DNA of 24,000 bases from an uncultured Actinomycetes bacterium (lineage in GTDB: Bacteria; Actinomycetota; UBA4738; HRBIN12), in the NCBI GenBank assembly GCA_963825685.1, contig CAWGUD010000027.1, positions 130,538 through 154,537 of the forward strand, in the 5' to 3' direction. The first letter of the stretch is position 1; each line of letters starts with the position of its first letter. This document shows, one piece after another, positions 4,069 to 22,591 of this stretch. The notes under the pieces were generated by a model. It was not told the DNA's origin. It saw nothing but the letters and a program-made list of their open reading frames with translations, and did no database searches. The position numbers and the translations under genes are program-made.

Positions 4069-4125
4069 CTGGCTCGCCTCCCGCTTGGCTCACGGTGCAG
4101 CGGCAACCGTACCGCAGGCGGCGTC

Positions 4126-6489
4126 TCAGCTCGATGCCTCGCGCTCGGAGCGAGCCGACGCCCGAGCGGTCTCGAGCTGGTAGGAGACGCTCGTGAGGAC
4201 GACGCGATCCTCGAACAGGAACAGGCGCTTCACGAACAACGCGGTCTGTCCGTGCAGCGGCAGCTGCCACCACTTCGCCACGATGTACTCGGGGACCACG
4301 ACGTTCACGATCGTGTCCGCCCGCTCGGTGTACCGACGCACCTCGGCCAGCATCGGGATCGAGAGGTCGCGGAACGGCGCCTCGACGATGTCGAGCGGCA
4401 CGGCCTCGACGACGTCGAACCAGTCTTCGCCGATCGAGTGCGCGGCCTCGGGGTCGAGATCGAAGTAGACCGCCCTCGTCACGGTCGCGTCGAGCGTGCG
4501 GGCGTAGTTCACCGCCCGCACGGACACGTCGTTCACCGAGGAGAGGAACACGAGCGTCACGGTGCGCTGCGGGATCAGCGGCTTGCCACCGGCTCCCGAG
4601 GGGGAACCTTCCTCGAGCACGACGGGGACGTCGGTGACGACGACGTTGGGGGTGCGCAGCATGCTGGCCTTCAGGCGCACGAGGTCGCGGCTGCCCACGA
4701 GGTAGGAGAAGAAGCCCTGGGGACGCAGCAGCTCGGGGACGATCACGGTCACGAAGTCGTCGGGGCCACGGTCGATCCCCTCCACCACGCTCCGGACACC
4801 CGACGTGAGGTTCGAAGCCGCGATCGGCATCAGGTCGGGGATGCCCGCCCCGACGAAGGAGCGCCAGCGCGCCTGCACGTCGGCGGCGACCTCACCCTCG
4901 CGACAGGGGAAGACCGGCCGGATGTCCTCGGGGCGGAACGACCGCAGGTACCCCACCGCGCCGGCGGTCGCGACGTCGAAGTCGCGAACGAGCAGCACCA
5001 CGTGGTTCTCACCCGTGGCACCCGGTCGGACCCGCTTCGCGCTCAACTGGCGCCGCACGTTCGCGTAGTGGTGGTGGATCGAGTAGAAGACGGGCACGAG
5101 CAGCGCCATGATCAGGATCGAGAGCCACGCGCCGCTCGACCACTTCGAGGCGCCGACCACGATCAACACCACGAACGTCGTGACCGCCCCGACCGCGTTG
5201 ATCACGATCGATCGGCGCCACCCCTTCATCGCGGTGTCGCCCTTGCGACCCTCCGCGATCCAGTGCTTCACCATGCCCGATTGAGACAGCGTGAACGACG
5301 TGAACACGCCGACCACGTAGAGCCCGATCACCGCGTTCAGGTCCGCGTCGAAGATGTAGATCATCACCGCCGACAGCAGCCCGAGCACGAGCACGCCGTT
5401 GGAGAAGACGAGGCGGTCGCCGCGGTTCACGAACTGGCTCGGCAGGTACCGGTCGCGGGCCAGGATCGAGGCGAGACGCGGGAAGTCCTGGTAGGCCGTG
5501 TTGGCAGCAAGGATCAGGATCGCCGCCGTGAACACCTGCACGACGTAGAAGCCGATCGATCCGTCGCCGAAGACCGCGATCGCGATCTGCGCCGGCACGG
5601 AACGCTCTTCACTCGCGACGACGCCCTCGACGTGCGTCGCGAGCCAGGAGATGCCCATGAACATCGAGATCGCGATGCCACCCATGATCGCGAGCGTCGT
5701 CGCGGCGTTGTGCGCCTGCGGACGTTTGAACGCCGGCACGCCGTTGGAGATCGCCTCCACACCGGTGAGCGCGGTGGCGCCTGACGAGAACGCCTTGAGG
5801 AGCACGAACAGCCCGACCGCGCCCGCGGTCGTCGCCGCGTCGTGGATCGGCTCGACCTCGACACCCACCGCCGGGCAGCCTCCGAGGCACTGACCGAGCC
5901 CGAGCACGATCAACGCACCGATCGAGAGCACGAAGCCGTAGGTCGGGATCGCGAACACCACGCCCGACTCCTTGGAGCCGCGCAGGTTCGCGAGCGTGAC
6001 GAAGGCCACGAAGAAGATCGAGAGGGCGACCGCGTGCTCGTTGGCTGCCGGAATCGCCGAACCGATCGCGAACACCCCGGCCACGATCGAGACGACGACG
6101 GTCATCATGTAGTCGAAGAGCAGGGCCGCGGCGGCGACGAGGCCGGGAGCCTGGCCGAGGTTCTCCTTGCTCACGATGTACGCCCCGCCGCCCCCCGGGT
6201 AGGCCCGCACGGTCTGGCGGTACGAGGCGATCACGAGCGCCATCAAGAGCGAGACGGCTCCCGCGATCGGGAGCACGTAACCCTGCGGCGCCGTGGTCGC
6301 GATCGTGAGCACGAGGAGGATCTCGCCGGTGGCGTAGGCGACCGACGACAGCGCGTCGGACGCGAAGACGGGCAGCGCGAGGACCTTCGGCAGCAGGGTG
6401 TGTTCGAGGCGCGAGCTCGAGAAGGCGCGGCCGAGCACGACCCGCTTGAACACCCCGGTCGACGGCGCGGGAAGGTCGGTCCTGGCCAT
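4126..6489 (-). CDS. APC-superfamily permease, KimA-type K+/H+ symporter-like, with two tandem C-terminal cytoplasmic domains (paralogue 1)
   Basis: 787-aa ORF. Motifs: FKRVVLGRAFSS..LEHTLLPKVLALPVFASDALSSVAYATGE, SYRQTVRAYPGGGGAYIVSKENLG, LLKAFSSGATALTGVEAISNGVPAFKRPQAHNAA and LAANTAYQDFPRLASILARDRYLPSQFVNRGDRLVFSNG. As far as I recall these match B. subtilis KimA (YdaO) and M. tuberculosis Rv2690c-type proteins. Two 131-aa C-terminal repeats occupy nt 4615-5007 and 4174-4566. Confidence 0.8.
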   Translation of the reverse strand: MARTDLPAPSTGVFKRVVLGRAFSSSRLEHTLLPKVLALPVFASDALSSVAYATGEILLVLTIATTAPQGYVLPIAGAVSLLMALVIASYRQTVRAYPGGGGAYIVSKENLGQAPGLVAAAALLFDYMMTVVVSIVAGVFAIGSAIPAANEHAVALSIFFVAFVTLANLRGSKESGVVFAIPTYGFVLSIGALIVLGLGQCLGGCPAVGVEVEPIHDAATTAGAVGLFVLLKAFSSGATALTGVEAISNGVPAFKRPQAHNAATTLAIMGGIAISMFMGISWLATHVEGVVASEERSVPAQIAIAVFGDGSIGFYVVQVFTAAILILAANTAYQDFPRLASILARDRYLPSQFVNRGDRLVFSNGVLVLGLLSAVMIYIFDADLNAVIGLYVVGVFTSFTLSQSGMVKHWIAEGRKGDTAMKGWRRSIVINAVGAVTTFVVLIVVGASKWSSGAWLSILIMALLVPVFYSIHHHYANVRRQLSAKRVRPGATGENHVVLLVRDFDVATAGAVGYLRSFRPEDIRPVFPCREGEVAADVQARWRSFVGAGIPDLMPIAASNLTSGVRSVVEGIDRGPDDFVTVIVPELLRPQGFFSYLVGSRDLVRLKASMLRTPNVVVTDVPVVLEEGSPSGAGGKPLIPQRTVTLVFLSSVNDVSVRAVNYARTLDATVTRAVYFDLDPEAAHSIGEDWFDVVEAVPLDIVEAPFRDLSIPMLAEVRRYTERADTIVNVVVPEYIVAKWWQLPLHGQTALFVKRLFLFEDRVVLTSVSYQLETARASARSEREASS

Positions 6490-6498
6490 GGCGGCAGC

Positions 6499-8886
6499 CT
6501 ACGTGGTCGCCGGGGTCCCGGCGGTCGGGCTCGGGTCGGGCCCGACCTCGGGCGCCGACAGGTGGAACGGCACGCTCGTGACCACGACACCCGGCTCGAA
6601 GAGCAGCACCCGTTTGAAGAACAGGGCGGTCTGGTTGTGCAACAGGTTCTCCCACCAGTGTCGTGGCACGAGCTCGGGCAGCACGACGGTGACCACGGTG
6701 TCGCCGCGTGATGTGTGCGCGCGGATCTCTTCGAGCAACGGCGGACCGAAGTCGCGGAAGGGAGCCTCGACCAGCACGAGCGGCACGTCGAGCTGCCGCT
6801 CGTGCCACTCGTCCACCACGCCCTCGACCTCGTCGGGATCGGTGACCATGTAGATCGCCTCGATCGCGGTGGGGTGCAGCGACTTGCCGTAGATCACGGC
6901 ACGCACCGTCGGATCGTGCACCGCGGAGACGGGCACGAGGACCACCGTGCGCTCCGGCTCGAGCGGTCGATCGCCGAGCCAGGTCGGCCGCGCTTCCGAC
7001 GGCACGAGCGGCACGTCGGTCACGACCACTCGCGGCTCGAACAGCAGCGCCGTCTTCAGCAGGAACGCCTCCCGATGTCGCACGAACTGCCAGACCGTGT
7101 TGCGCGGAAGCAGCTCGGGGATCACGACCGTGAGGAATCGGTCCCGCTCGTGGCGAGGCACCGAGCGCACGAAGCGACGGACGGATCGGACGAGGTGCCG
7201 GTCGGCGCCTCGGAGCGGCTCCAGCTCGCCCATGCGGGGGGCGATCACCGACCACTCCGCCGCCACGCCCTCGAACGCATCGGCAGGGCCGACGTACAGC
7301 GCGTTGAAGCTGGTGGGGCGAACGGCCCGCAGGTAGGCGACCGCATCACGGGTCGCGAGCCCCAGGTCGGGCACGAGCAGCAGCATCGTGCCGCTCGCGG
7401 CGTCGCGCCCGGTCAGGCGGCGAGCCTGCAGCGCGCGCGCCACGTGCTCGTAGTGGCGATGCACCGCCCAGAAGAACAGCACGATGAACGGCATCGCGAC
7501 GATCACGATCCAGGCGCCCTTGGCGAACTTCGTGACCGTGACGACGACGAGCACGACGCCGGTCGTGGCCGCGCCGATGCCGTTGATCACGGCGCTCCGC
7601 TGCCAGCTCCCCTCCTTCGTCCGCATCCAGCGCCGGACCATGCCCGCCTGCGACAGCGTGAAGGCCGTGAACACGCCGACGACGTAGAGCTGGATCAGCC
7701 GCGTGAGGTTGGCGTCGAACGCCCAGATCAGCATCGCCGCGAGACCGGCGAGGACGACGACGCCGTTCGAGAAGACGAGCCGGTCGCCCCGGTTGCGGAA
7801 CTGCGAGGGCATGAAGCGGTCGCGCGCGAGGATCGAGGCGAGCCGAGGGAAGTCCTGGAACGCCGTGTTGGCCGCGAGGATCAGGATGCCCGCGGTGAAC
7901 ACCTGCAGCAGCAGGAACATGAAGCCGCCGCCGAAGACCGTGTCGCCGATCTGGGCCAGCACCGGCAGCTCGTGGACGATGTCCTCGCTGATCCGCACGT
8001 GCAGGAGCACGGAGAGCGCGGTGATGCCGAGGAACATCGTGATCGACATCGCTCCCATCACCGCGAGGGTGGTCGCGGCGTTCCTCGCCTGCGGCCTGCG
8101 GAACGCCGGCACCCCGTCGGCGATCGCCTCGACGCCGGTCAACGCGGTCGCACCCGACGAGAACGCGCGCGCGATCAGGAACAGCGTCAGCGTGTGCTCG
8201 ACCTCGAGGGGAAGGTCAGCGGTCTCGGCGAGCGGGCAGCCGCCCATGCAGCGGACGAAGCCCGTCACGAGCGTGATCGCGATCATCAGCACGAACCCGT
8301 AGGTCGGGATCGCGAACAGCGACCCGGCCTCCTTCACGCCTCGGAGGTTGGCGAGGGTCACGAGGGCGACGAGCGCGATCGCGATCGGCACGCGCATCGG
8401 TACGAGGGTCTCCGGTGCGACGGAGGCGATCGCCGTGGTCCCCGCGGTGATGCTCACCGCCACGGTCAGCACGTAGTCGGTCAGGATCGCGGCGGCGGCG
8501 GTGAGGCCGGGGATCGTCCCCAGGTTCTCGCGGGCGACGATGTAGGAGCCGCCGCCGGTGGGATAGGCACGCACCGTCTGCCGGTACGACGTGACGACGA
8601 TGGCCAGCAGCAGGGCGATCGCCAGCGCGATCGGCATCCTGAGCGTGAGGGCCCCGGCCCCGGCCGCCACGAGCACGAGCATCATCTCCTCGGTGGCGTA
8701 CGCGTTCGAGGAGAGGGGGTCGGAGGAGAAGACCGGCAGGGCGAGGAACTTCGGCAGGAGCTGGTGCTCGGCCTTGTCGGAGGCGATGGCCCGTCCGACG
8801 AACAGTCGCTTCAGGGGGCCCCCACCGACCCTGCGAGGGAGTTGCAGCTCTGCAGGCACGGCGAGCATCCTCGCACGTCGCGGCAC
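6499..8886 (-). CDS. APC-superfamily permease, KimA-type K+/H+ symporter-like, with two tandem C-terminal cytoplasmic domains (paralogue 2)
   Basis: 795-aa ORF, colinear paralogue of 4126..6489 with the same motifs (LKRLFVGRAIAS..AEHQLLPKFLALPVFSSDPLSSNAYATEE, SYRQTVRAYPTGGGSYIVARENLG, ARAFSSGATALTGVEAIADGVPAFRRPQARNAA, RGDRLVFSNG). Its stop lies 9 nt before the start of paralogue 1. The start is uncertain: GTG 8886 or ATG 8868. Confidence 0.8.
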   Translation of the reverse strand: MPRRARMLAVPAELQLPRRVGGGPLKRLFVGRAIASDKAEHQLLPKFLALPVFSSDPLSSNAYATEEMMLVLVAAGAGALTLRMPIALAIALLLAIVVTSYRQTVRAYPTGGGSYIVARENLGTIPGLTAAAAILTDYVLTVAVSITAGTTAIASVAPETLVPMRVPIAIALVALVTLANLRGVKEAGSLFAIPTYGFVLMIAITLVTGFVRCMGGCPLAETADLPLEVEHTLTLFLIARAFSSGATALTGVEAIADGVPAFRRPQARNAATTLAVMGAMSITMFLGITALSVLLHVRISEDIVHELPVLAQIGDTVFGGGFMFLLLQVFTAGILILAANTAFQDFPRLASILARDRFMPSQFRNRGDRLVFSNGVVVLAGLAAMLIWAFDANLTRLIQLYVVGVFTAFTLSQAGMVRRWMRTKEGSWQRSAVINGIGAATTGVVLVVVTVTKFAKGAWIVIVAMPFIVLFFWAVHRHYEHVARALQARRLTGRDAASGTMLLLVPDLGLATRDAVAYLRAVRPTSFNALYVGPADAFEGVAAEWSVIAPRMGELEPLRGADRHLVRSVRRFVRSVPRHERDRFLTVVIPELLPRNTVWQFVRHREAFLLKTALLFEPRVVVTDVPLVPSEARPTWLGDRPLEPERTVVLVPVSAVHDPTVRAVIYGKSLHPTAIEAIYMVTDPDEVEGVVDEWHERQLDVPLVLVEAPFRDFGPPLLEEIRAHTSRGDTVVTVVLPELVPRHWWENLLHNQTALFFKRVLLFEPGVVVTSVPFHLSAPEVGPDPSPTAGTPATT

Positions 8887-8905
8887 GAGCGACGAGCGGA
8901 TCGGG

Positions 8906-9595
8906 CTAGCCGGCGACCTCGGCCACCCAGCGATAGCCGACCCCCGGCTCCGTGACGATCAGGGCCGGGGCCTGCGCATCGTCGCCGAGCTTCTTCCGCA
9001 GGGCACGCACGTAGGTGCGCAGGTAGGTCGTCTCGGTCCCGTAGCCCTGCCCCCACACCTTCCGCAGGAGCCACTGATGGGTGAGGAGCTTGCCCGGGTT
9101 CGTCACGAGCGCCTCGAGCAGGCCGTACTCCGTGGGTGTGAGCCGCACCTGCTCGCCGTCGAGGGTCACCAGCCGACGGGGAAGGTCGACCTCGATCCTG
9201 CCGAACCGCAGCACGGGTGCGGATGGCTCGTCAGACTGCTTGCGGCGCATAGCAGCCCGGGCCCGGGCGAGGAGCTCCTCCATGCCGAAGGGCTTCGTGA
9301 CGTAGTCATCGGCGCCCGCGTCGAGCGCGGCGACCTTGTCGGTCTGAGATTCCCGCACCGAGAGCACGATCACCGGCACGTCGCTGAACCCGCGAACACG
9401 GCGGATCACCTCGGTCCCGTCGATGTCGGGGAGCCCGAGGTCCAGCAGCACGAGATCGGGCGCCTGCTCGGCAGCGCCGACGACCCCTTCCTCGCCGGTG
9501 CCGACGGTCGCGACGTCGTACCCGTGGGCCTCGAGGCTCGTGCGAAGCGCCCGTCTGATCTGCGGCTCGTCGTCGACGACGAGGACCAGGGTCAT
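8906..9595 (-). CDS. OmpR/PhoB-family response regulator, KdpE paralogue
   Basis: 229 aa with a receiver domain (VVDDEPQI...DLGLPDIDG...KPF) and a winged helix (LTPTEYGLLEALVTNPGKLLTHQWLLRKVWG...YLRTYVRALRKKL). By eye it is about half identical to the KdpE at 14866..15552. Its ATG overlaps the stop of the upstream kinase (ATGA). Confidence 0.9.
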   Translation of the reverse strand: MTLVLVVDDEPQIRRALRTSLEAHGYDVATVGTGEEGVVGAAEQAPDLVLLDLGLPDIDGTEVIRRVRGFSDVPVIVLSVRESQTDKVAALDAGADDYVTKPFGMEELLARARAAMRRKQSDEPSAPVLRFGRIEVDLPRRLVTLDGEQVRLTPTEYGLLEALVTNPGKLLTHQWLLRKVWGQGYGTETTYLRTYVRALRKKLGDDAQAPALIVTEPGVGYRWVAEVAG

Positions 9596-11106
9596 GTGCG
9601 CGCCTCCTGATCGGCCGGGACCCCGGCGCGAGCGAGGTCGGCCTCGAGTCCCGGCGTGTACGCGGGGATCTCGAACACGAAGGTCGCGCCCTCACCGACC
9701 GCGTCCTCGACCCAGATGCGGCCGCCGTGCGCCGTGACGATCGCGTTCGCGATCGCGAGTCCCAGGCCGGTGCCGGGGGAATCCGGGATCGAGGCGCCTC
9801 GGTAGAAGGCCTCGAAGATGCGCTCGCGGTCACCGTCAGGAACGCCGGGCCCCTGATCGGTCACCCGCACGATGACGTGATCGTTCGACGGCGCGACCGA
9901 CAGCCTCACCTCACCTCCGGGCGGCGAGTGGCGTGCGGCGTTCTCGAGCAGGTTCGTCATCACCTGGTCGAGCTGCATCTCGTCGACGGCGACCGGGGGC
10001 ACGTCATCGTCGATGTCGAGCACGATCCGCACGTCGTGCAGGCGCGGCACGAGCCGGGCGACGACGACCTCCGCGATCTCGTCGAGACCGGCCTCGTTGC
10101 GGGCGGGGATCAGGGCGCCCGCCCGGATGCGCGCGAGGTCGAGGATGTTGCCGACCAGTCGGTTCAGCCGGTCGGTCTCCTCGAGGATCGTCGTGAGCAG
10201 CTCCCGTTCCTGCGTCGGATCGTGCTCCACGCTGGGATCGAGCAGGCTCGTGACCCCCGCCTTGATCGACGCGAGCGGCGTGCGGAAGTCGTGGGTCACC
10301 GAACTGAACATCGCCGCGCGCAGCTGGTTCGTCTCGGCATCGAGCTGCGCGAGCCGGGCGCGGGCGTCGAGCCGAGCGCGGTCGAGCGCGGCGGCGGCCT
10401 GCTTCGATGCCGCCTCGAGGAGGAGCTGCTCGTGCGGCCCGAGGGGCCGACGTCCGGCGGGGCGCTCGACCCGCAGCGTGCCGAACGAGACCGGCCCGAC
10501 GACGAGGGGCACCACGCTGTCCGGACCGCCGGGCGTGAGCTCGGAGCGCTCCGCGCGCGCGCGGAGCTGCGTGCCGTCGAGCTCGACGTGCACCTCGGCC
10601 GAGACCAGCCCGAACGGCTCCAGCAGCACGCGCACGAAATCGTCGAGCACCCGGTCGGGCACCTCGCCCGAGACGAACCTCGACGAGAGGTGCCCGAGCA
10701 GGCGTGCCTCGCGCTCACGACGGCTCGCCCGGGCCCGCTCCTCGGCGGCACCCCCGACCAGGATGCCGACGACGAGCGCCACGGTCAGGAACACCACCGC
10801 GGTGACCGCCTCCTCGGTGCCCTCGAGCTGCAGGGCAAGCCCCTGTGCCTCGGACAGGAACACGAGCCCCAGCGACGACAGGATCGCAGCGAGGAGGCCC
10901 GCCCAGAGGCCACCCGCGACCGTCGCGATCACGATCGCCAGCAGGAAGAGCGCGATCGCGGCCGCCGGCCCGTTGCGGGCGAGCGGGATCGAGGCCACGC
11001 CGGCGGCCGCGGGGGCGACCACCGCGATCGCCACCCCGCGGACGCGCAGGCCGGGGAATCGGCGCCGTTCCGGCTCGTTCACTCCCAGATCCATCGTGTT
11101 GGCCAT
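9592..11106 (-). CDS. Sensor histidine kinase, KdpD C-terminal-half type (TM/DUF4118-like + GAF-like + HisKA + HATPase_c), lacking the KdpD N-terminal and Usp domains
   Basis: 504 aa. The H-box FSSVTHDFRTPLASIKAGVTSL is near-identical to that of KdpD in this window (LSAVSHDLRTPLASIKAAASSL). The N, G1 and G2 boxes are present (LLENAARHSP, DQGPGVP, GTGLGLAI). The N-terminus has 3-4 TM helices, and no Walker-A KdpD domain is present. Confidence 0.85.
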   Translation of the reverse strand: MANTMDLGVNEPERRRFPGLRVRGVAIAVVAPAAAGVASIPLARNGPAAAIALFLLAIVIATVAGGLWAGLLAAILSSLGLVFLSEAQGLALQLEGTEEAVTAVVFLTVALVVGILVGGAAEERARASRREREARLLGHLSSRFVSGEVPDRVLDDFVRVLLEPFGLVSAEVHVELDGTQLRARAERSELTPGGPDSVVPLVVGPVSFGTLRVERPAGRRPLGPHEQLLLEAASKQAAAALDRARLDARARLAQLDAETNQLRAAMFSSVTHDFRTPLASIKAGVTSLLDPSVEHDPTQERELLTTILEETDRLNRLVGNILDLARIRAGALIPARNEAGLDEIAEVVVARLVPRLHDVRIVLDIDDDVPPVAVDEMQLDQVMTNLLENAARHSPPGGEVRLSVAPSNDHVIVRVTDQGPGVPDGDRERIFEAFYRGASIPDSPGTGLGLAIANAIVTAHGGRIWVEDAVGEGATFVFEIPAYTPGLEADLARAGVPADQEART

Positions 11107-11134
11107 CGTGCCATGCGTATCGGCACGGATCCGT

Positions 11135-11184
11135 CTTCACGTGATCTTCACGCCACGGCGCCGTTCCTTCACGCCACCCTCACA
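11135..11184. promoter_or_regulatory. Array of four phased 7-bp direct repeats (two pho-box-like 7+4+7 units); candidate response-regulator operator upstream of the kinase/regulator/permease operon
   Basis: Plus strand reads CTTCACG-tgat-CTTCACG (11135-11152) and CTTCACG-ccac-CCTCACA (11167-11184). Repeat starts are at 11135, 11146, 11167 and 11178, spaced 11/21/11. The array lies 29-78 nt upstream of the kinase ATG (11106). On the operon-sense strand the repeat reads CGTGAAG. Confidence 0.4.
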
Positions 11185-11306
11185 GACCGAGGACGATGCT
11201 CTGGGCAGGAGTAGAACGTCCTCCGAACCAAGCCCGGAGGCCGGACGGCGCCCTCCAGCCCGCCCGACCTCCGGGCCCCGTCCTTTCCGGACCCCTCCCC
11301 CGCCGG

Positions 11307-11322
11307 TGTGAACGACTTCACA
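11307..11322. promoter_or_regulatory. Perfect CRP/GlxR-type palindrome TGTGA-N6-TCACA
   Basis: The sequence is TGTGAacgactTCACA at 11307-11322, in the 314-bp divergent intergenic region. An extra TGTGA half-site lies at 11330-11334. A Crp-family regulator gene lies 540 bp away. Confidence 0.55.
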
Positions 11323-11420
11323 GCGTTCCTGTGACCCACGCCGCCCACCTTCCGACGGCCCACGCCTACGGTCGGACCGAGGGCTGCGAGGTGAGCAGCC
11401 ACCGAGCGGAGGGAGAGGTC

Positions 11421-11792: not shown

Positions 11793-11809
11793 CTCCCGCG
11801 AGTCGCGCA

Positions 11810-11841
11810 CGACGGATCCGGCCGACAGGCCGGATCCGTCG
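11810..11841. terminator. Bidirectional intrinsic-terminator-like hairpin between convergent genes
   Basis: A perfect 14-bp stem (c)GACGGATCCGGCC-gaca-GGCCGGATCCGTC(g) sits 18 nt after the stop at 11792 and 20 nt after the minus-strand stop at 11862. It has no U-tract, which is common for actinobacterial terminators. Confidence 0.6.
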
Positions 11842-11861
11842 CGTGTCGAGGGGCCCGGACC

Positions 11862-12554: not shown

Positions 12555-12658
12555 GCCACCTCCTCGGATGACCCATCGTCGCTCGCGACGGGCCGCGCGT
12601 CGACCCCGCGACACCGGCATGCTGCCGTCGCGCGCGGCGTGGTCTAGGATGCCCCGCG

Positions 12659-13321
12659 ATGCGAGTGATCATCATGGGATGCGGCCGCGTCGGCTCCGAG
12701 CTGTCGAACGAGCTCGTCGACGACGGCCACGACGTCACCGTGATCGACAAGAATCCCGAGGCCTTCTTCCGCTACCCGCCGGGCGACGGTGCGACGACCG
12801 TCGTCGGGCTAGGGTTCGACCGCGACGTGCTGGCGGAGGCGGGCATCGAGGAGGCTGACGCCTTCGTCGCGGTCTCCAGTGGGGACAACTCGAACATCGT
12901 CTCGGCTCGCGTCGCGCTCGAGAACTTCCATGTGCCCAAGGTCGTGGCGCGTATCTACGACCCCCGGCGTGCCGACATCTATGAGCGGCTCAACATCCCG
13001 ACCGTCGCCACCACGAGGTGGGGCGTGAAGCAGATCCAGCTGATGCTGTTCCACGACCGCCAGGAGATCCGCGAGACGCTGGGCGGTGGCGAGCTGCTGC
13101 GCATGCGCATGCCGGTGGGACCCCACATGGTCGGCAAGCCCGCGACCTCCTTCGACGTGCCGGGCAAGATCCTGATCGCCGGGGTATCGCGCGGAGGCGG
13201 CGGCTTCTTGCCCACCCCGGAGAGCACCTTGCAGGCGGGGGACTACCTCGTGGTGATGCTCACGAAGGACGGCATGGACACGCTCGACGAGGTCTTCGAG
13301 CCGGCCGGGGAGCACCACTGA
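12659..13321 (+). CDS. trkA: TrkA-family K+ uptake regulatory protein (RCK: TrkA_N + TrkA_C), CeoB-like
   Basis: 220 aa with a Rossmann motif (MRVIIMGCGRVGSELSNELVDDGHDVTVID) and a C-terminal TrkA_C-like region (LLRMRMP..HMVGKP..FDVPGKILIAGVSRGG...LQAGDYLVV). Confidence 0.9.
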   Translation: MRVIIMGCGRVGSELSNELVDDGHDVTVIDKNPEAFFRYPPGDGATTVVGLGFDRDVLAEAGIEEADAFVAVSSGDNSNIVSARVALENFHVPKVVARIYDPRRADIYERLNIPTVATTRWGVKQIQLMLFHDRQEIRETLGGGELLRMRMPVGPHMVGKPATSFDVPGKILIAGVSRGGGGFLPTPESTLQAGDYLVVMLTKDGMDTLDEVFEPAGEHH

Positions 13322-14041
13322 TGCGGGTCGTCGTCACGGGCGGCGGCGCCGTGGGTCGGCACCTCTCGGTCGACCTGGTCGAGCGCGGCCACGAGGTCAC
13401 CCTGATCGAGCAGGATCGCGGACTCGTCGAGAAGCTCCGGGCGTGGGCGCCGGGGGTGACCGTGATGCACGGTGACGCGTGCGAGCCCACGGTGCTCGAG
13501 GAGGCAGAGCTCTCGGCCACCGACGTGCTCGTGGCGGCCACCGGCGACGACGAGGACAACCTCGTGACCTCGTTGCTCGCGAAGCAGGAGTTCGCGGTGC
13601 CGCGCACGCTGGCCCGCGTGAACCACCCGAAGAACGAGTGGCTGTTCACCGATCAGTGGGGGGTCGACGCCGCCGTCTCGCCGCCGCACATCCTCACCGC
13701 GATGGTCGAGGAAGCCGTCACGGTCGGCGACCTCGTGCGGTTGATCCGCCTCGGGAGCGGTCAGGTCTCGATCGTCGAGATGACCCTCCCCGAAGGGTCG
13801 ACGTCGGTCGGCCGTGCGGTCTACGAGCTGCGCCTGCCCGCCGACTCCGTCGATCGTGGCGATCCTTCGTGAGGGCCACGTCGTGATCCCGCAACCGGAG
13901 ACCGTGCTCGCGGCCGGCGACGAGGTGCTCGCCCTCGCGTCCGGTGCCGTCGAGCGGGATCTGCGCGACGCCGTCGTGGGCGCGGACATGCCCGGCGGGG
14001 TGCCGACCGACGCGATCGACGGCGCCAGCGGCGTCGAGTAG
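13321..14041 (+). pseudogene. trkA: Second TrkA-family RCK protein (CeoC-like), interrupted by a single extra base near 13849-13852
   Basis: Frame 1 (13321->) reads MRVVVTGGGAVGRHLSVDLVERGHEVTLIEQD...VGRAVYELRLPADS and stops at 13872. The next frame (ORF 13814..14041) continues IVAILREGHVVIPQPETVLAAGDEVLALA. Total length is 721 nt, i.e. 240 codons plus 1 base. The ATG overlaps the trkA1 stop (TGATG). Confidence 0.8.
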
Positions 14042-14869
14042 TCAGCCGTCGGCGGTGGTCGCGGCGGCGATCGCCGCTCGCAGCGCTCGGTCTCGTTCGA
14101 GCAGCAAGGCGAGCTGGTTCCCGAACGCCTCCAGGATGCGTCGCTCCGAGGCGCTGAGTGGTTCGCGGACTCCGCGCATCACCAACAGCCCCAGGTTGCG
14201 GCGCCCCACGTTGAGGGGGAGCCGCTCCACGCCCTCCCCACCGCTGGGCGGCACGGCGCCGGGTTCCGTTCCCACCGTCGCCTGCTCCACGAGCCCGCGA
14301 TCGGAACCCTCCTGCACGTACAGGGCGCCGTCCAGGAACCCGAACGACGCCACCACGACCCGCAGCACGCCCTCGTACGGCCGAGGTCCTGGTTGGGGCT
14401 CGACCAGCAGGCGGCTGAGGTCCTGCTGCCTGCGGAGCTCCTCGGCGCGGGCCTCCGCAGCCCGCGCCCGTGCGTCGGCGCGGGCGACGAGCACGGAGAT
14501 CAGCACCGACAGCCCCAGGAAGACGAACAGCACGATCACGTCGTGCGACTTGCCGATCACGAACGTCTCGTACGGGGGTAGGAAGAAGAAGTTGAAGACG
14601 GCGAACCCGAGCACACTCGCCACGATGCCCGGGCCGAGCCCACCCAGGCCGACGCACGCGACGACCAGCACGAGGAAGCCGAACCCCGTCGCGACCGGGT
14701 CGACCCGCTCGCGGATCGCCGGCGCAGCGAGCACGATCGCCGCCGTTCCGGCGACCGCGAGCACGTACGCCGCCGCGACCCGGCCGGAGACCTGGATGCG
14801 CGGACGACGTTGGGGCGGTGTGCCGACCTCGTGCCGGTCGGGCCGATCAGGTGCCTGAGATGCCGTCAT
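14042..14869 (-). CDS. Kinase-less KdpD-like sensor core (DUF4118 transmembrane domain + GAF-like domain)
   Basis: Internal ATG 14869 of ORF 14042..15088, overlapping the kdpE stop (ATGA). It has four TM helices with the DUF4118 hallmark FAVFNFFFLPPYETFVI, then a coiled segment and a GAF-like region (VLRVVVASFGFLDGALYV...LLVMRG...ERRILEAFGNQLALLLERDRA). It ends where the HisKA helix would begin. Confidence 0.75.
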   Translation of the reverse strand: MTASQAPDRPDRHEVGTPPQRRPRIQVSGRVAAAYVLAVAGTAAIVLAAPAIRERVDPVATGFGFLVLVVACVGLGGLGPGIVASVLGFAVFNFFFLPPYETFVIGKSHDVIVLFVFLGLSVLISVLVARADARARAAEARAEELRRQQDLSRLLVEPQPGPRPYEGVLRVVVASFGFLDGALYVQEGSDRGLVEQATVGTEPGAVPPSGGEGVERLPLNVGRRNLGLLVMRGVREPLSASERRILEAFGNQLALLLERDRALRAAIAAATTADG

Positions 14870-15552
14870 GGGGTTCCCTCCGGCTCGAACCGGTACCCCA
14901 TGCCGGGCTCGGTGATGAAGAACCGAGGTCGCGCCGGGTCGGGCTCGAGCTTGCGTCGGATCTGCGCCATGTACACACGCAGGTAGTTCGTCTCGTCGTG
15001 GTACTGCGGCCCCCACACCTCCTGCAGCAGCTGTCGTTGCGTCACGAGCTTGCCCGGGTTGCGGACCAGGATCTCCACGACGTGCCACTCGGTCGGCGTG
15101 AGCCGCACCTCACCCTCGGCGGTGCGCACCCGCGCCGCACCGAGGTCGACCGTGAAGGCGTCGGTCGTGACTTCTGGTTCCTCGTCCGTCGGACGCAGCC
15201 GCCGTTCGGCGGCTCGCAGCCGCGCGAGGAGCTCGTCCATGCCGAAGGGCTTCGTCACGTAGTCGTCGGCGCCGGCGTCGAGGGCACGGACCTTGTCCGG
15301 CTCCTGGTCACGGGCCGAGAGCACGAGGATCGGCATGCGGCTCCATGCCCTGATGCCCTCGATCACGTCGACCCCGTCGATCCCGGGCAAGCCGAGATCG
15401 ACGATCGCCACATCGGGACGTTCACGGGCGGCGATCGCGAGGGCCTCCTCGCCATCGGGGGCGGTCACCACGTCGTACCCACGGGCGCGCAGGTTCGTGC
15501 GGAGCCCGCGCACGATCTGGGGCTCGTCGTCGACCACCAGCACCCGGGTCAT
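14866..15552 (-). CDS. kdpE: Response regulator KdpE
   Basis: 228 aa with motifs LSARDQEPDKVRALDAGADDYVTKPFGMDELLAR and LTPTEWHVVEILVRNPGKLVTQRQLLQEVWGPQY..ETNYLRVYMAQIRRKLE. Its ATG overlaps the kdpD stop. Confidence 0.92.
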   Translation of the reverse strand: MTRVLVVDDEPQIVRGLRTNLRARGYDVVTAPDGEEALAIAARERPDVAIVDLGLPGIDGVDVIEGIRAWSRMPILVLSARDQEPDKVRALDAGADDYVTKPFGMDELLARLRAAERRLRPTDEEPEVTTDAFTVDLGAARVRTAEGEVRLTPTEWHVVEILVRNPGKLVTQRQLLQEVWGPQYHDETNYLRVYMAQIRRKLEPDPARPRFFITEPGMGYRFEPEGTP

Positions 15553-18107
15553 CCACCCACCTCCGCAGGAGGATGCGCCGATGGCTCGGGGAGCGCCTCA
15601 CCGGAGGGCTCGGCGAGCGGGAACGCCACCACCATCGTCAGTCCGCCGCCGGGCGTCTCGTCGGGTGTGAGGGTGCCCCCCATCGCCTGGACGAACCCGC
15701 GAGCCACCGCGAGCCCGAGGCCGACGCCGTCGACACCTGCGCGATCGCCGAGTCGCTGGAACGGTTCGAAGACCCGTTCACGGTCCTCCGCCGGGATACC
15801 GGGGCCACGATCGACCACGCGTAGCTCGACCCGGCCGCTGGCGGCGGATCCGAAGACGCCCACGGGAGCGTCCGGCGGGCTGAACGCCCGCGCGTTCGCG
15901 ACCAGGTTCGCCACCGCACGCTCGAGGAGCGCCGCATCGACGTCGATGCGCGGCAGATCCTCGGGAACGTCGACCTCGACGTCGTGGCCTCGTCCCGGGA
16001 GGCTGGCCAGGGCACGCAGCACCACCTCGTCGAGCCCGACCCTGCTCGGCGTGAGGCGCAACATGCCGCTCTGGATGCGGCTCATGTCGAGCAGGTTGCC
16101 GACGAGCTCGGTGAGCCGGTCTGTCTCTTCCTCGATCGTCGCGAGGAACTCGTCTCGCTCCTCGTCGTCCCACACCACGTCTCGCTGGCGGAGGGAGCTC
16201 GCGGCCGCCTTGATCGAGGCCAGCGGCGTGCGCAGATCGTGCGAGACGGCCGACAGGATCGCCGCTCGCAGGTCACTGACCTCGGAGACCCGCTCGGCCT
16301 CCGCCACGTCGCGTTCCAGCGCCCTCGTCCGCACGGCCGCCGTCAGCTGAGCCGCGAAGGCGGCCAGCACGCGACGCCGATCCGCAGGGAGGCGGCGGCC
16401 GCGGAGGACCAGCACTCCACCGTCCTCGAGGTCGATCGTTTCATCGCCGTCGTCGGGCGAGGCGATCGGCTCACCGGTCGCGGCCTCGACGCGCCACCCC
16501 CGGTCGGTGGTGGGTGTGAGGACCGCGGCGCCCTCGAGCCCGAACGTCGCGACCACCTGCCGCACCAACGTCGGCAGCGGATCCTCCTCCGCCGCGAGCG
16601 ACCCGGCCATCCGCGCGAGCGCCTCGGCCTCACCCCGGCCGCGCGCGGCCTCGGCCCGCGACCGCTCGGCCCGATCGACCAGGATGCTCACGGCGACGGC
16701 GGCGGCGACGAACGCGACGAGGGCCAACAGGTTCTCGGCCTCGGCGATCGTCCACGTGTGGATCGGCGGCGTGAAGAACCAGTTGAGCAGGAGCGAGGCA
16801 GCCACCGCGCTCGCGACCGCGGGCCAGATGCCGCCGACGGCCCCGATCGCGAGCACGAGGATGAAGTAGAGCAGCACATCGGCCGTGAGGCCGAGGGAGC
16901 CACGCGCGGCGGTGAGCGCGAGCGTGAGCAGCGGCAGCCCGACGAGGGCGAGCGCGAACCCCGCGACCTGGCGGGCGGGGGGGAGCCCGACGAGCGCGCG
17001 ACGCCGCTTCGGCGCCCCCCCACCCGCAGGGGCTGCGCTGGAGATCACATGCACGTCGATCGGGCCGGATCGCCGGATCACCCGGTTGATCACCGACCCC
17101 CGGATCAGCTCGGCGACCCGCGACCGATCGCTCTCGCCCAGCACCACCTGGGTGACGTTCTCCGCCCGGGCGACATCGAGGAGCGCGTCCGGCACGCTCG
17201 CGCCGACGACCTCGTGGAACGCGCCACCGAGCGCGCGGACGAGGGTTCGCGTCTCCTCGAGCGCGGCAGCATCGGCGACGCCGTCCTCAGGCACCACATG
17301 CACGGCGACGAGGTCCCCACCGCGCCGCGTGGCCATGCGCGACCCCCGACGGATCAAGTTCTCGTCCTCATCGGGACGACCGGTCACCCCGACCAGGACG
17401 CGTTCGCGCGTCTCCCACGGCCCTTCGATGTCGTGGACCCGCATGTACTCGTGCAGCGACTCGTCGACGCGGTCGGCCATCCACAGGAGCGCCAGCTCCC
17501 GGAGGGCGCCGAGGTTCCCCTCTCGGAAGTAGTTGCCGAGCGCGGCGTCGACCTTCCCGGGCGGGTAGATGTTCCCGTGCGCCATGCGACGGCGGAGCGC
17601 GTGTGGGGTCATGTCGACGAGCTCCTGTTGGTCGGCGGCGCGCACGATCTCGTCGGGGATCGTCTCGCGCTGAGCGACCCCGGTGATGCGCTCGACGACG
17701 TCGTTCACCGACTCGAGGTGCTGGATGTTCACCGTCGAGATCACGTCGATGCCCGCTACCAGCAGTTCCTCGACGTCCTGCCAGCGTTTCGCGTTGCGGG
17801 AGCCCGGCACGTTCGTGTGCGCGAGCTCGTCGACCAACGCGACCTCGGGCGCGCGAGCGAGGAGCCCGTCGACATCCATCTCCTCGAACGTCGAGCCTCG
17901 GTACTCGATCAGGCGGCGGGGCAGGACCTCCAGGTCACCGACCTGCTCGGCGGTGCGCGGGCGACCATGGGTCTCGATGAAGCCGACCACGACGTCGGTG
18001 CCGCGGTCGCGGCGCCGTCGGCCCTCGTTCAACATCGCGTAGGTCTTGCCGACGCCCGCGGCGAAGCCGACGTAGATACGCAGCTCGCCGCGGCGACGAT
18101 CGCTCAT
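15549..18107 (-). CDS. kdpD: Sensor histidine kinase KdpD (full length: KdpD-N, Usp, 4 TM/DUF4118, GAF, HisKA, HATPase_c)
   Basis: 852 aa. Motifs: GELRIYVGFAAGVGKTYAMLNEG (Walker A), FIETHGR, LLLNWFFTPPIHTWTI and H-box SAVSHDLRTPLASIK. Its ATG overlaps the kdpC stop. Confidence 0.95.
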   Translation of the reverse strand: MSDRRRGELRIYVGFAAGVGKTYAMLNEGRRRRDRGTDVVVGFIETHGRPRTAEQVGDLEVLPRRLIEYRGSTFEEMDVDGLLARAPEVALVDELAHTNVPGSRNAKRWQDVEELLVAGIDVISTVNIQHLESVNDVVERITGVAQRETIPDEIVRAADQQELVDMTPHALRRRMAHGNIYPPGKVDAALGNYFREGNLGALRELALLWMADRVDESLHEYMRVHDIEGPWETRERVLVGVTGRPDEDENLIRRGSRMATRRGGDLVAVHVVPEDGVADAAALEETRTLVRALGGAFHEVVGASVPDALLDVARAENVTQVVLGESDRSRVAELIRGSVINRVIRRSGPIDVHVISSAAPAGGGAPKRRRALVGLPPARQVAGFALALVGLPLLTLALTAARGSLGLTADVLLYFILVLAIGAVGGIWPAVASAVAASLLLNWFFTPPIHTWTIAEAENLLALVAFVAAAVAVSILVDRAERSRAEAARGRGEAEALARMAGSLAAEEDPLPTLVRQVVATFGLEGAAVLTPTTDRGWRVEAATGEPIASPDDGDETIDLEDGGVLVLRGRRLPADRRRVLAAFAAQLTAAVRTRALERDVAEAERVSEVSDLRAAILSAVSHDLRTPLASIKAAASSLRQRDVVWDDEERDEFLATIEEETDRLTELVGNLLDMSRIQSGMLRLTPSRVGLDEVVLRALASLPGRGHDVEVDVPEDLPRIDVDAALLERAVANLVANARAFSPPDAPVGVFGSAASGRVELRVVDRGPGIPAEDRERVFEPFQRLGDRAGVDGVGLGLAVARGFVQAMGGTLTPDETPGGGLTMVVAFPLAEPSGEALPEPSAHPPAEVGG

Positions 18108-18664
18108 GGCAGTGGGGCCAGCTCCTCCACCGCGATGTTGAGTTCGAGCACGTTCACGCGGGGCTCCCCGAGGAACCCGAAGGTCCGGCCTTCCGTGTGC
18201 TCATCGATCAGCGCCATCACATCGCTCAGCTCGAGGCCTCTGGCCTCGGCGACCCGCGGGGCCTGCAGACGAGCGTACGCGGGACTGATGTGCGGGTCGA
18301 GGCCGCTGCCGCTCCCGGTCACCGCATCGACCGGCACCTCGGAGGCTCCGTCGGAGGACCGGATCGCGTCGAGCCGCTCGGACACCGCGACACCGAGCTC
18401 CGGGTTCGTCGGGCCGAGGTTCGACGGGGCGCTCGCGGCAGGGTCGAAGGCGTCGGGTCGTCCCACGAACCACGCCGGACCTTCGAAGGCTTGGCCGATC
18501 AGCGACGAACCGACGACCTCGCCGTCGTGTGTGACGAGACTGCCGTCAGCCTGGTCGGAGAAGACGACCCGACCGACCCCCCAGATCGCCAGCGGATACA
18601 GCACCCCGACCACGACGGTCAACACCAACAGCATGCGCAGCGCCGACACGATCGCGCGTCCCAT
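18104..18664 (-). CDS. kdpC: K+-transporting ATPase subunit C
   Basis: 186 aa with an N-terminal TM helix (MLLVLTVVVGVLYPLAIWGVG) and the motifs SSLIGQ.F, GSGLDPHISP and PRVNVLELN. Confidence 0.93.
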   Translation of the reverse strand: MGRAIVSALRMLLVLTVVVGVLYPLAIWGVGRVVFSDQADGSLVTHDGEVVGSSLIGQAFEGPAWFVGRPDAFDPAASAPSNLGPTNPELGVAVSERLDAIRSSDGASEVPVDAVTGSGSGLDPHISPAYARLQAPRVAEARGLELSDVMALIDEHTEGRTFGFLGEPRVNVLELNIAVEELAPLP

Positions 18665-22316: not shown

Positions 22317-22402
22317 CAGAACCGCTCCGGGAACACGAGGGCGATCACGAGGTAGACGATCAGTCCGAGCGCCAGCACGATGCCCACGACGTCGTCGGTC
22401 AC
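22316..22402 (-). CDS. kdpF: K+-transporting ATPase subunit F (28 aa)
   Basis: Not in the ORF track because it is too short. The GTG at 22402 gives (M)TDDVVGIVLALGLIVYLVIALVFPERF, matching the KdpF pattern (...YL..AL..PE.F). Its stop overlaps the kdpA ATG (TGATG). Confidence 0.8.
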   Translation of the reverse strand: MTDDVVGIVLALGLIVYLVIALVFPERF

Positions 22403-22482
22403 AGCCGATCCACCCCCCGCACGAGCAGCATGAGCGCGGCGAACACCACGAGCGTCACCACCACGAAGATCACATCAGCCAC
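22399..22482 (-). CDS. Candidate 27-aa single-TM micropeptide opening the kdp operon
   Basis: A GTG at 22482 lies 5 nt downstream of a strong GAAGGAGG (22488-22495). It translates to (M)ADVIFVVVTLVVFAALMLLVRGVDRL. Its stop overlaps the kdpF GTG (GTGA). Confidence 0.5.
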   Translation of the reverse strand: MADVIFVVVTLVVFAALMLLVRGVDRL

Positions 22483-22540
22483 GGCGGCCTCCTTCGGTCA
22501 TGGAGCCACGGTAGGACCGAGAACGCTGCGCGGCAGCCGT

Positions 22541-22591
22541 CTTGATGCCCCCTTGACGGGGGCTGTTCGGATCATTGACGCGTCGCTGACG
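22541..22591. promoter_or_regulatory. Array of four phased 7-bp direct repeats (two 7+4+7 units); candidate KdpE operator upstream of the kdp operon
   Basis: Plus strand reads CTTGATG-cccc-CTTGACG (22541-22558) and ATTGACG-cgtc-GCTGACG (22574-22591). Repeat starts are at 22541, 22552, 22574 and 22585, spaced 11/22/11. The array lies 59-109 nt upstream of the first kdp-operon start codon. On the sense strand the repeat reads CGTCAAG. Confidence 0.35.

What the first reader, a model, noticed from the sequence alone, without database searches (positions are those of the whole stretch)
22541..22591. The kdp promoter has a matching repeat architecture whose core differs by one base (CGTCAAG versus CGTGAAG)
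Seen in sequence: CTTGATG-cccc-CTTGACG and ATTGACG-cgtc-GCTGACG have repeat starts at 22541, 22552, 22574 and 22585. This is the same 7+4+7 / gap / 7+4+7 layout as at 11135-11184. Read on the operon-sense strand, the consensus here is CGTCAAG, while the other array is CGTGAAG. The two KdpE paralogues differ in the presumed recognition helix (ETNYLRVYMAQIRRKL versus ETTYLRTYVRALRKKL). Inference: this is a paired operator/regulator divergence that insulates two K+-responsive circuits within one locus. Caveat: the first unit overlaps a GC hairpin (GCCCCC-ttgac-GGGGGC, 22547-22563). That hairpin could instead be the terminator of the upstream OB-fold gene. A possible sense-strand -10 (TACCGT, 22513-22508) would place the array at about -41 to -90.
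Basis: partly seen in the sequence, partly recalled or inferred. Interest (0 to 1): 0.6.

Follow-up and report, generated by a model that had tools for sequence, protein, structure and literature searches.

The report
KdpE operator of the kdp promoter
The four short repeats upstream of the potassium-pump (kdp) operon are almost certainly the docking site of its regulator KdpE. A sister regulator in the same locus uses the same four-repeat layout with one base changed, which makes a natural, testable case of how duplicated switches may be kept apart.

Summary
In kdp sense they read CGTCAGC-N4-CGTCAAT-N15-CGTCAAG-N4-CATCAAG (22591-22541).

- **Conservation in the genus.** In 11 same-genus genomes the units are kept while the spacers drift. 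A -10 (TAsnnT, here TACCGT) lies exactly 27 nt from the last unit in all 11.
- **Match to a tested site.** The proximal pair matches the experimentally defined Mycobacterium smegmatis KdpE site at 13 of 14 bases.
- **Phylum-wide layout.** The same two-pair layout, mostly 32 bp apart, recurs upstream of kdp in about 33 of 41 loci across Actinomycetota. It is the family's normal operator design, not a peculiarity of this locus.
- **The paralogue's array (11135-11184).** CGTGAAG is kept in 47 distinct arrays from four genera.
- **Position 4.** It is G (184/188) there, against C or T (43/44) at same-genus kdp promoters and C, A or T (54/56) phylum-wide.
- **Recognition helices.** The two regulators differ at fixed residues, two of them at known base-contact positions.

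The hairpin is not conserved and has no U-tract, so it is not a terminator. Insulation of the two circuits is plausible but untested.

Extra: the paralogue's array also faces a divergent promoter, a structured leader and trkA.

Other notes of this scan on this same window cover the KimA operon, the CTTCACG array and the kdpA frameshifts.

The parts
22585..22591 (-). Unit 1 (distal) of the kdp operator, CGTCAGC
   Evidence: The weakest of the four units but still recognisable in most of 11 same-genus promoters.
22574..22580 (-). Unit 2, CGTCAAT
   Evidence: C1, T3, A5 and A6 are invariant in 11/11.
22552..22558 (-). Unit 3, CGTCAAG
   Evidence: Corresponds to CGTAAAG of the M. smegmatis KdpE site.
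22541..22547 (-). Unit 4 (proximal), CATCAAG
   Evidence: T3, A5, A6 and G7 are invariant. Identical to CATCAAG of the M. smegmatis site.
22508..22513 (-). -10 hexamer TACCGT of the kdp promoter; transcription start inferred near 22501
   Evidence: TAsnnT lies exactly 27 nt after unit 4 in 11/11 orthologous promoters, although the intervening sequence is diverged. The start site itself is inferred, not mapped.
22399..22495 (-). Shine-Dalgarno GAAGGAGG (22488-22495) and first small ORF of the kdp operon (GTG at 22482)
   Evidence: conserved coding sequence directly downstream of the promoter.
14866..15552 (-). kdpE, the presumed binder; helix ETNYLRVYMAQIRRKL
   Evidence: Best PDB match is E. 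coli KdpE, 4KNY, E 6.6e-68. The helix is invariant in intact orthologues.
15549..18107 (-). kdpD, full-length sensor kinase
   Evidence: Pfam KdpD, Usp, DUF4118, HisKA and HATPase domains.
11135..11184 (-). Paralogue operator: TGTGAGG-N4-CGTGAAG-N14-CGTGAAG-N4-CGTGAAG
   Evidence: 47 distinct arrays from 4 genera; position 4 is G in 184 of 188 units.
8906..9595 (-). KdpE paralogue (RR2); helix ETTYLRTYVRALRKKL
   Evidence: Best PDB match is E. coli KdpE, E 4e-62. It is 54% identical to KdpE. The helix is conserved in 40 orthologues.
9592..11106 (-). Short KdpD-like kinase (HK2), with no KdpD or Usp N-terminal domains. The conserved start codon is more likely the ATG at 11094.
   Evidence: Pfam DUF4118, HisKA and HATPase. 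Orthologues found in 131 of 151 genomes searched in the order. Start-codon alignment.
4126..8886 (-). Two KimA-like K+ importer genes downstream of RR2
   Evidence: PDB 6S3K KimA, E 4e-116, for the first. Both carry AA_permease_2.
11195..11200 (+). Divergent -10-like hexamer GATGCT, 10 nt beyond the outer unit of the paralogue operator
   Evidence: GAnnnT sits at exactly this distance in 48/48 distinct arrays. A2 and T6 are invariant and the spacer is not conserved.
11208..11276 (+). Conserved hairpins P2 (11208-11224) and P1 (11232-11276); candidate 5' leader of the trkA side
   Evidence: 10 of 18 P1 pairs carry compensatory changes, and 0/500 shuffles reach the score. Folding z-scores are -3.1 (+ strand) and -4.8 (- strand). 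No Rfam family matches. Single copy in the genome. The RNA strand is not settled.

Best explanation
The array at 22541-22591 is the KdpE operator of the kdpF(ABCDE) promoter.

**Anatomy.** It consists of two tandem 7-4-7 direct-repeat sites. Each suits one head-to-tail dimer of an OmpR/PhoB-type regulator. The pairs start 33 bp apart, about three helical turns, so they lie on one face of the DNA. They are centred near -48.5 and -81.5 relative to a start site inferred from the conserved -10 TACCGT.

**Mechanism (inferred).** Under K+ limitation KdpD phosphorylates KdpE. KdpE~P occupies the two sites and recruits or stabilises RNA polymerase.

**The paralogue.** The short-KdpD/KdpE-like pair (HK2/RR2) uses an operator of the same design with CGTGAAG units. 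That operator lies between its own kimA operon and a divergent promoter that leads through a structured leader towards trkA.

**Specificity (inferred).** It most likely rests on operator position 4 (C, T or A for KdpE; G for RR2). On the protein side it would rest on three fixed helix substitutions, in E. coli KdpE numbering: 194 V/T, 197 A/R, 198 Q/A.

**Shown versus inferred.** Shown: the repeats, their conservation, the geometry, the homology to a footprinted site, and the fixed helix differences. Inferred: binding, activation, the start site and insulation.
For: - **Units conserved.** Units are conserved against diverged spacers in 11 same-genus promoters, and the unit-to--10 distance is invariant at 27 nt.
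- **Match to a tested site.** The proximal pair CGTCAAG-N4-CATCAAG matches the M. smegmatis minimal EMSA/footprint site CGTAAAG-aaac-CATCAAG at 13/14 unit bases (PMC5401905). M. aurum carries the orthologous pair in kdp sense, as the proximal pair of a four-unit array.
- **Phylum-wide layout.** About 33 of 41 kdp loci from named Actinomycetota (Streptomyces, Mycobacterium, Amycolatopsis, Arthrobacter and others) have a sense-oriented four-unit array, mostly with a 32-bp offset. The best-dimer score reaches 10.5 or more in 63% of loci against 1.5% of shuffles.
- **Regulator.** KdpE is a clear KdpE orthologue with R193, R200 and T215 kept.
- **Single target.** Each operator type is unique in the genome.
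- **Position 4.** Same-genus kdp units: C 32, T 11, G 1. Phylum-wide kdp dimers: C 26, A 20, T 8, G 2, although G is about 35% of bases. RR2 arrays: G 184, A 4.
- **Helices.** The helices are fixed per paralogue across genera. They differ at two of the four positions equivalent to the base-contacting residues of PhoB.
Against: - No binding, transcript or start-site data exist for this organism, and the tool for sequencing runs was unavailable.
- The operators differ at only one of seven bases per unit. Individual units cross the line: one kdp unit reads CGTGAAA in a relative, and four RR2 units read CGTAAAG. Cross-binding is therefore possible.
- Canonical KdpE boxes avoid G at position 4 in loci from genera where no RR2-type regulator was looked for. 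This may be KdpE's intrinsic preference rather than selection for insulation.
- kdpA in this assembly carries two +1 insertions, so the operon may be non-functional here, or the assembly may be error-prone.
- Orientation and distance to the -10 differ between operator classes in the order, so the activation geometry is not understood.
Confidence: 0.8

Rival explanations
1. Cross-regulation rather than insulation. Both KdpE and RR2 bind both arrays with different affinities, so the two two-component systems jointly tune Kdp, KimA and TrkA. Position 4 then sets rank order rather than exclusivity.
For: - The units are 6/7 identical and the layout is the same.
- Occasional units carry the other class's base.
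- Both proteins keep R193, R200 and T215.
Against: - Position 4 is almost perfectly partitioned over many genera.
- The helix differences are fixed at base-contact positions.
- RR2 is unusually conserved, at 82-86% identity where its kinase is about 60%, as is its operator. That suggests a tightly co-adapted pair.
Confidence: 0.3
2. The GC hairpin at 22547-22563 is the terminator of the upstream 121-aa gene, and the repeats around it are incidental.
For: A 6-bp GC stem exists in this genome and its 97%-identical relative.
Against: - There is no U-tract, and the scan finds no terminator-like site.
- The stem depends on the variable 4-nt spacer GGGG and is absent in the other relatives, while the repeat units are kept.
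- The intergenic RNA folds no better than shuffles, z -0.17.
Confidence: 0.03
3. The array is bound by another OmpR/PhoB-family regulator (for example a PhoP-, MtrA- or GlnR-like protein) and not by KdpE.
For: The 7+4+7 direct-repeat format is generic to the family (PMC4832192).
Against: - The sequence matches the KdpE site defined by footprinting and EMSA in M. smegmatis.
- The motif tracks kdp operons that encode KdpE with the same helix across the phylum.
- It occurs once in the genome, at kdp.
Confidence: 0.04

Closest known systems
KdpE binding site in the kdpFABC promoter of Mycobacterium smegmatis (Ali et al. 2017, PMC5401905)
   Same: - The same unit sequence and 7-4-7 spacing: CGTAAAG-aaac-CATCAAG against CGTCAAG-gggg-CATCAAG.
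- The same position upstream of kdpF.
- A KdpE with a near-identical recognition helix in mycobacterial loci, ETHYLRVYLAQLRRKL.
   Different: The paper describes one 22-bp 'A-rich' motif and does not note direct repeats or a second pair. Here, and in mycobacterial loci, a second pair lies 32-33 bp upstream. The paper proposes a SigF-type promoter, whereas this genus has a TAnnnT -10 at 27 nt.
E. coli KdpE operator (TTTATA-N5-TTTACA; PMC3264566; PDB 4KNY and 4KFC)
   Same: - Two direct repeats one helical turn apart, upstream of the kdpFABC core promoter.
- Bound by a head-to-tail KdpE dimer.
- R193, R200 and T215 are conserved in both regulators of this window.
   Different: The E. coli site is AT-rich, has 6-bp half-sites, and has a single pair. 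Its half-sites read towards the promoter in the opposite orientation if TTTAC is equated with TTGAC.
Pho boxes of PhoB and PhoP (7-bp direct repeats with a 4-bp spacer, often in multiple copies; M. tuberculosis PhoP-DNA structure, PMC4832192)
   Same: - The 7+4+7 unit format and tandem dimers.
- Arrays of several boxes in helical phase.
- The divergent promoter at array 2 has the PhoB-like geometry, with the box ending 10 bp from the -10.
   Different: The unit sequence and the regulator differ. The target here is a potassium uptake regulon of one or two operons, not a global regulon.
Paralogous two-component regulators kept apart by specificity residues (a general concept)
   Same: A duplicated kinase/regulator pair in one locus, with fixed differences in the DNA-reading helix and a matching fixed difference in the operator.
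   Different: The literature I know mostly treats kinase-regulator pairing. Here the candidate insulation is at the DNA step and reduces to one operator position. It is not demonstrated.

Membership tests
KdpE operator (OmpR/PhoB-type direct-repeat site at a kdp promoter) | Two or more direct repeats of 6-7 bp spaced one helical turn (11 bp) apart | tested here: met
   Units start at 22541, 22552, 22574 and 22585. The same phasing is found in 11 relatives.
KdpE operator (OmpR/PhoB-type direct-repeat site at a kdp promoter) | Located just upstream of the core promoter of kdpF/kdpA | tested here: met
   Unit 4 ends 27 nt from the conserved -10 TACCGT. The first ORF of the operon starts at 22482. 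The start site is inferred, not mapped.
KdpE operator (OmpR/PhoB-type direct-repeat site at a kdp promoter) | Cognate KdpD/KdpE encoded with the operon | tested here: met
   KdpD has the full domain set. KdpE matches E. coli KdpE at E 6.6e-68.
KdpE operator (OmpR/PhoB-type direct-repeat site at a kdp promoter) | Sequence agreement with an experimentally defined KdpE site of a related organism | tested here: met
   13 of 14 unit bases agree with the M. smegmatis site. The orthologous pair is in kdp sense in M. aurum.
KdpE operator (OmpR/PhoB-type direct-repeat site at a kdp promoter) | Binding of phosphorylated KdpE and KdpE-dependent induction at low K+ | not testable with these tools
   Needs EMSA, footprinting and reporter assays.
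Intrinsic (Rho-independent) terminator | GC-rich stem-loop followed by a U-tract, conserved downstream of the gene it ends | tested here: not met
   No terminator-like site was found. The stem is followed by AUCAAGACGG. The stem is not conserved. The fold z-score is -0.17.
Insulated paralogous regulator/operator pair | Fixed, class-specific difference in the operator | tested here: met
   Position 4 is C or T in 43 of 44 same-genus kdp units, C, A or T in 54 of 56 phylum-wide, and G in 184 of 188 RR2 units.
Insulated paralogous regulator/operator pair | Fixed, class-specific difference at DNA-reading residues | tested here: met
   In E. coli KdpE numbering, positions 194 V/T, 197 A/R and 198 Q/A(S,T,M) are fixed across genera. 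Positions 194 and 198 are equivalent to the PhoB base contacts V197 and R201.
Insulated paralogous regulator/operator pair | Each regulator discriminates against the other's operator | not testable with these tools
   Needs cross-binding assays with position-4 swaps.

The most novel reading that the evidence does not exclude
A one-base operator switch (H to G at position 4), read by a three-residue change in the recognition helix, keeps two KdpE-family circuits separate. KdpD/KdpE drives the Kdp pump. The short HK2/RR2 pair drives a bidirectional operator that controls two KimA importers on one side. On the other side it controls a previously undescribed structured leader RNA (a possible attenuator or riboswitch) ahead of trkA. 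The two-dimer, 32-bp-offset operator would be the ancestral design of the whole family in Actinomycetota.
Probability: 0.3. Interest if true: 0.7.

Novelty: new variant of a known kind. Interest (0 to 1): 0.5.

Why it matters
- **The kdp operator itself is expected.** It is the actinobacterial KdpE box, which is already footprinted in M. smegmatis.
- **A wider KdpE operator design.** The KdpE site in Actinomycetota turns out to be a pair of dimer sites with a fixed offset and a fixed distance to the -10. This holds from Streptomyces to Mycobacterium and was not described in the papers I could search. [quoted passage not shown]
- **A compact test case for specificity.** A widespread sister system uses the same design with a single changed base and a few changed helix residues. 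That gives a small natural system for asking how OmpR/PhoB-type regulators evolve new DNA specificity without cross-talk.
- **A link between K+ uptake systems.** The sister operator appears to tie KimA and TrkA potassium uptake to one regulator.

Tried and rejected
- **Window-level pattern counts** with up to 3 mismatches were not discriminating, so I used genome-wide scans and conservation instead.
- **The promoter/terminator consensus scan** found nothing. It is tuned to sigma-70 TTGACA/TATAAT and misses the actinobacterial TAnnnT.
- **Rfam** at gathering and at E-value thresholds found no family, either for this window or for nine related loci.
- **A first regex extraction of the kdp units** was off by one register. 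I redid it with a scoring scan.
I therefore have no read-level check of the kdpA frameshifts and no transcript ends.
- **Papers searched for base-by-base KdpE-DNA contacts** gave only the PhoB equivalences in PMC3264566. I cannot say which helix residue reads position 4.
- **The strand of the conserved hairpin** could not be settled. G·U counts favour the - strand (91.3% against 83.9% of cells paired), whereas the conserved -10-like hexamer argues for the + strand.
- **A c-di-AMP (ydaO) riboswitch** was considered for the leader and rejected for lack of any Rfam match.

Full report
**1. Setting**

The window is a 70% GC stretch of a 3.6-Mb metagenome-assembled actinobacterial genome. On the - strand it carries, from right to left:
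- an H+-pyrophosphatase gene;
- a 121-aa gene with no Pfam match;
- two small ORFs, then kdpA, kdpB and kdpC;
- kdpD with its full domain set, and kdpE.

Further on lie TrkA genes (+ strand), a Crp-family gene and a small membrane-protein gene. After these comes a second operon. It holds a short KdpD-like kinase (HK2: DUF4118, HisKA and HATPase only), a KdpE-like regulator (RR2), and two long APC permeases. The first permease matches the K+/H+ symporter KimA (PDB 6S3K) at E 4e-116.

**2. The observation**

In kdp sense the array reads CGTCAGC-gacg-CGTCAAT-N15-CGTCAAG-gggg-CATCAAG. Unit starts are 11, 22 and 11 bp apart. The comparator at 11135-11184 reads TGTGAGG-gtgg-CGTGAAG-N14-CGTGAAG-atca-CGTGAAG, with starts 11, 21 and 11 bp apart.

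A loose pattern count inside the window is not significant by itself. In the whole genome, however, the kdp-type dimer with at most one mismatch occurs only at the kdp promoter. The exact CGTGAAG dimer occurs only upstream of HK2 and on a 96%-identical duplicate contig. A four-unit scan ranks these two loci first, at 25 and 27 of 28 points, with the next unrelated arrays at 22.5 or below.

**3. Conservation within the genus**

I aligned the kdp upstream region of 11 same-genus genomes, 69-97% identical in the flanking genes.
- The four units are kept, while the spacers and the region between the array and the -10 are not alignable.
- Unit 4 is followed, exactly 27 nt later in all 11, by TAsnnT (TACCGT here).
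- The unit 2 to unit 3 distance is 21-23 bp.
- With a start site assumed 7 nt after the hexamer (about 22501), the units lie at -40/-46, -51/-57, -73/-79 and -84/-90.

The start site itself remains an inference.

**4. The hairpin caveat**

The GCCCCC/GGGGGC stem is made from unit 3 plus the variable 4-nt spacer. In the relatives the spacer is GGCG, GATG, AAGC, GACC and so on, so the stem disappears while the units stay. There is no U-tract. The intergenic RNA folds no better than shuffled sequence, z -0.17. A terminator role is therefore not supported.

**5. Identity of the site**

The M. smegmatis KdpE site was defined by DNase I footprinting and by EMSA truncation. It is 5'-CCGTAAAGAAACCATCAAGGCC-3', that is CGTAAAG-aaac-CATCAAG (PMC5401905). 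The window's proximal pair agrees at 13 of the 14 unit bases.

The window's KdpE is a clear orthologue of E. coli KdpE (4KNY, E 6.6e-68). It keeps R193, R200 and T215, which are required for DNA binding.

**6. The layout is phylum-wide**

A search with a KdpE alignment returned 80 named loci, from Streptomyces, Mycobacterium, Amycolatopsis, Micromonospora, Arthrobacter, Nocardioides, Acidimicrobiia MAGs and others. Forty-one of them contain kdpA.
- About 33 of the 41 have a kdp-sense four-unit array, mostly with a pair offset of exactly 32 bp, some 260-350 nt upstream of kdpA.
- The best-dimer score reaches 10.5 or more in 63% of these regions, against 1.5% of shuffles.
- In M. aurum the pair orthologous to the M. 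smegmatis site is the proximal one, in kdp sense. A TACGTT follows 28 nt downstream.
- Their KdpE helices are E[TS][NH]YLRVY[ML]AQ[LI]RRKL, essentially that of the window.

I found no paper that describes it. [quoted passage not shown]

**7. The paralogue**

*The proteins.* RR2 also best matches E. coli KdpE (E 4e-62) and is 54% identical to KdpE. HK2 orthologues occur in 131 of 151 genomes searched in the order, whereas kdpA occurs in only 33.

*The operator.* Upstream of HK2 the array is kept in all 51 loci examined, giving 47 distinct arrays from four genera where HK2 is only about 60% identical. It reads yGTGArn-N4-CGTGAAG-N14-CGTGAAG-N4-CGTGAAr, with a 21-bp central spacing in 45 of 47.

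*Position 4.*

| Operator set | Position 4 counts |
|---|---|
| RR2 arrays | G 184, A 4, never C or T |
| Same-genus kdp units | C 32, T 11, G 1 |
| Phylum-wide kdp dimers (position 4 not scored) | C 26, A 20, T 8, G 2 |

The real contrast is therefore 'not G' against 'G'.

*The helices.* KdpE orthologues carry ETNYLRVYMAQIRRKL. This is identical in two genera of the family and in one genome of another family. RR2 orthologues carry ETTYLRTY[VI]R[ASTM]LRKKL. In E. coli KdpE numbering the fixed differences are 190 N/T, 194 V/T, 197 A/R and 198 Q/A. Positions 194 and 198 correspond to the PhoB base contacts V197 and R201.

It does not show insulation. Units are 6/7 identical, a few units carry the other class's base, and G avoidance at kdp is also seen in loci from genera where no RR2-type regulator was looked for.

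**8. A third class in the order**

Most kdp loci in other genera of the order (KdpA about 52% identical) have a divergent short kinase plus a regulator with a different helix, DVDVLRVFVSQLRKKIE. They carry a four-unit array of the same 11/21/11 layout, but in the opposite orientation relative to kdp. That array ends 10 nt from a TAGGCT or TACGCT -10.

Orientation and distance are thus class-specific. How each geometry activates transcription is unknown.

**9. The paralogue's operator is two-sided (seen in passing)**

*A second promoter.* On the + strand, exactly 10 nt beyond the outermost unit, all 48 distinct arrays carry GAnnnT. A2 and T6 are invariant, G1 is present in 47 of 48, and the spacer is unconserved. 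A CAG follows 5-6 nt later. This is the same box-to--10 geometry as in the third class. In the window the hexamer is GATGCT at 11195-11200.

*A structured RNA.* The RNA that would start near 11207 begins with two conserved hairpins.
- P1 (11232-11276) has compensatory changes at 10 of 18 pairs, and no shuffle out of 500 reaches its score.
- The region folds far better than shuffles.
- It matches no Rfam family.
- It is single-copy in the genome.

*What lies downstream.* In the other genera, and in most genomes of this genus, the next + strand gene is trkA1-trkA2, about 200-250 nt away. In the window a small membrane-protein gene and the Crp gene are inserted first.

*The open point.* The RNA strand is unresolved. 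The hexamer argues for the + strand, whereas G·U counts slightly favour the - strand.

**10. Caveats about the assembly**

- kdpA carries two +1 insertions relative to four relatives, neither in a homopolymer run.
- Three of ten kdpE genes fetched from other genomes of the genus are also frameshifted. Error-prone assemblies are therefore as likely an explanation as real decay.

**11. Verdict**

The array is a KdpE operator of a type known from M. smegmatis (confidence about 0.8).

The operator and helix divergence is real and conserved. The shared layout, however, is ancestral rather than local, the contrast is H against G, and insulation remains to be tested (about 0.5-0.6).

Noticed in passing
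window 11195-11296 (+ strand): A second, divergent promoter-like element lies exactly 10 nt beyond the paralogue operator: GAnnnT, here GATGCT at 11195-11200. It is present in 48/48 distinct arrays. It is followed by conserved hairpins P2 (11208-11224) and P1 (11232-11276), which show compensatory changes, match no Rfam family and are single-copy. In most relatives trkA1-trkA2 follows. This is a candidate structured leader or attenuator of the trkA side.
   Followed up: partly
L161-L240 (named Actinomycetota loci), upstream of kdpA: The kdp promoters of Streptomyces, Mycobacterium, Amycolatopsis, Arthrobacter, Micromonospora and others carry two CGTnAAG-N4-CGTnAAG pairs, mostly exactly 32 bp apart and in kdp sense. 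I found no paper describing this two-dimer design.
   Followed up: partly
L128-L145 and L153-L160 (other genera of the same order): A third class of kdp locus. It has a divergent short kinase, a regulator with helix DVDVLRVFVSQLRKKIE, and a four-unit array in the opposite orientation that ends 10 nt from the kdp -10 (TAGGCT or TACGCT).
   Followed up: partly
window about 22195 and about 21240 (kdpA): Two single-base insertions relative to four relatives put kdpA in three frames. Three of ten kdpE genes from other genomes of the genus are also frameshifted, so assembly error is as likely as a pseudogene.
   Followed up: partly
G000 contig C36:8220-26567 against window 1-18338: A second contig of the same assembly is 96% identical to the first 18.3 kb of the window. 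It then diverges inside kdpC, and its kdpA part is only about 74% identical. This points to strain mixture or contamination, or to a recombination boundary in the kdp genes.
   Followed up: no
window 11094-11106: The ATG at 11094 is the start codon conserved across orthologues of the short kinase. The ATG at 11106 given by the ORF list is not. The - strand -10 of this operon is unclear: GTGGCACGAT is conserved 24-25 nt after unit 4 in part of the genus, while TAGCGT lies 5 nt after unit 4 in the rest and in other genera.
   Followed up: partly
L191, L197, L212, L217-L219, L224 (Streptomyces kdp promoters): About 25-27 nt after the proximal KdpE unit these promoters share GGGTTTCC rather than a TAnnnT. 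This is reminiscent of the SigF/SigB-type -35 proposed for M. smegmatis PkdpF.
   Followed up: no
order-level genome sample: The short KdpD-like kinase is found in 131 of 151 genomes searched in the order, but kdpA in only 33. In this lineage the KimA/TrkA-linked system looks like the default potassium two-component system, with Kdp as the accessory one.
   Followed up: no
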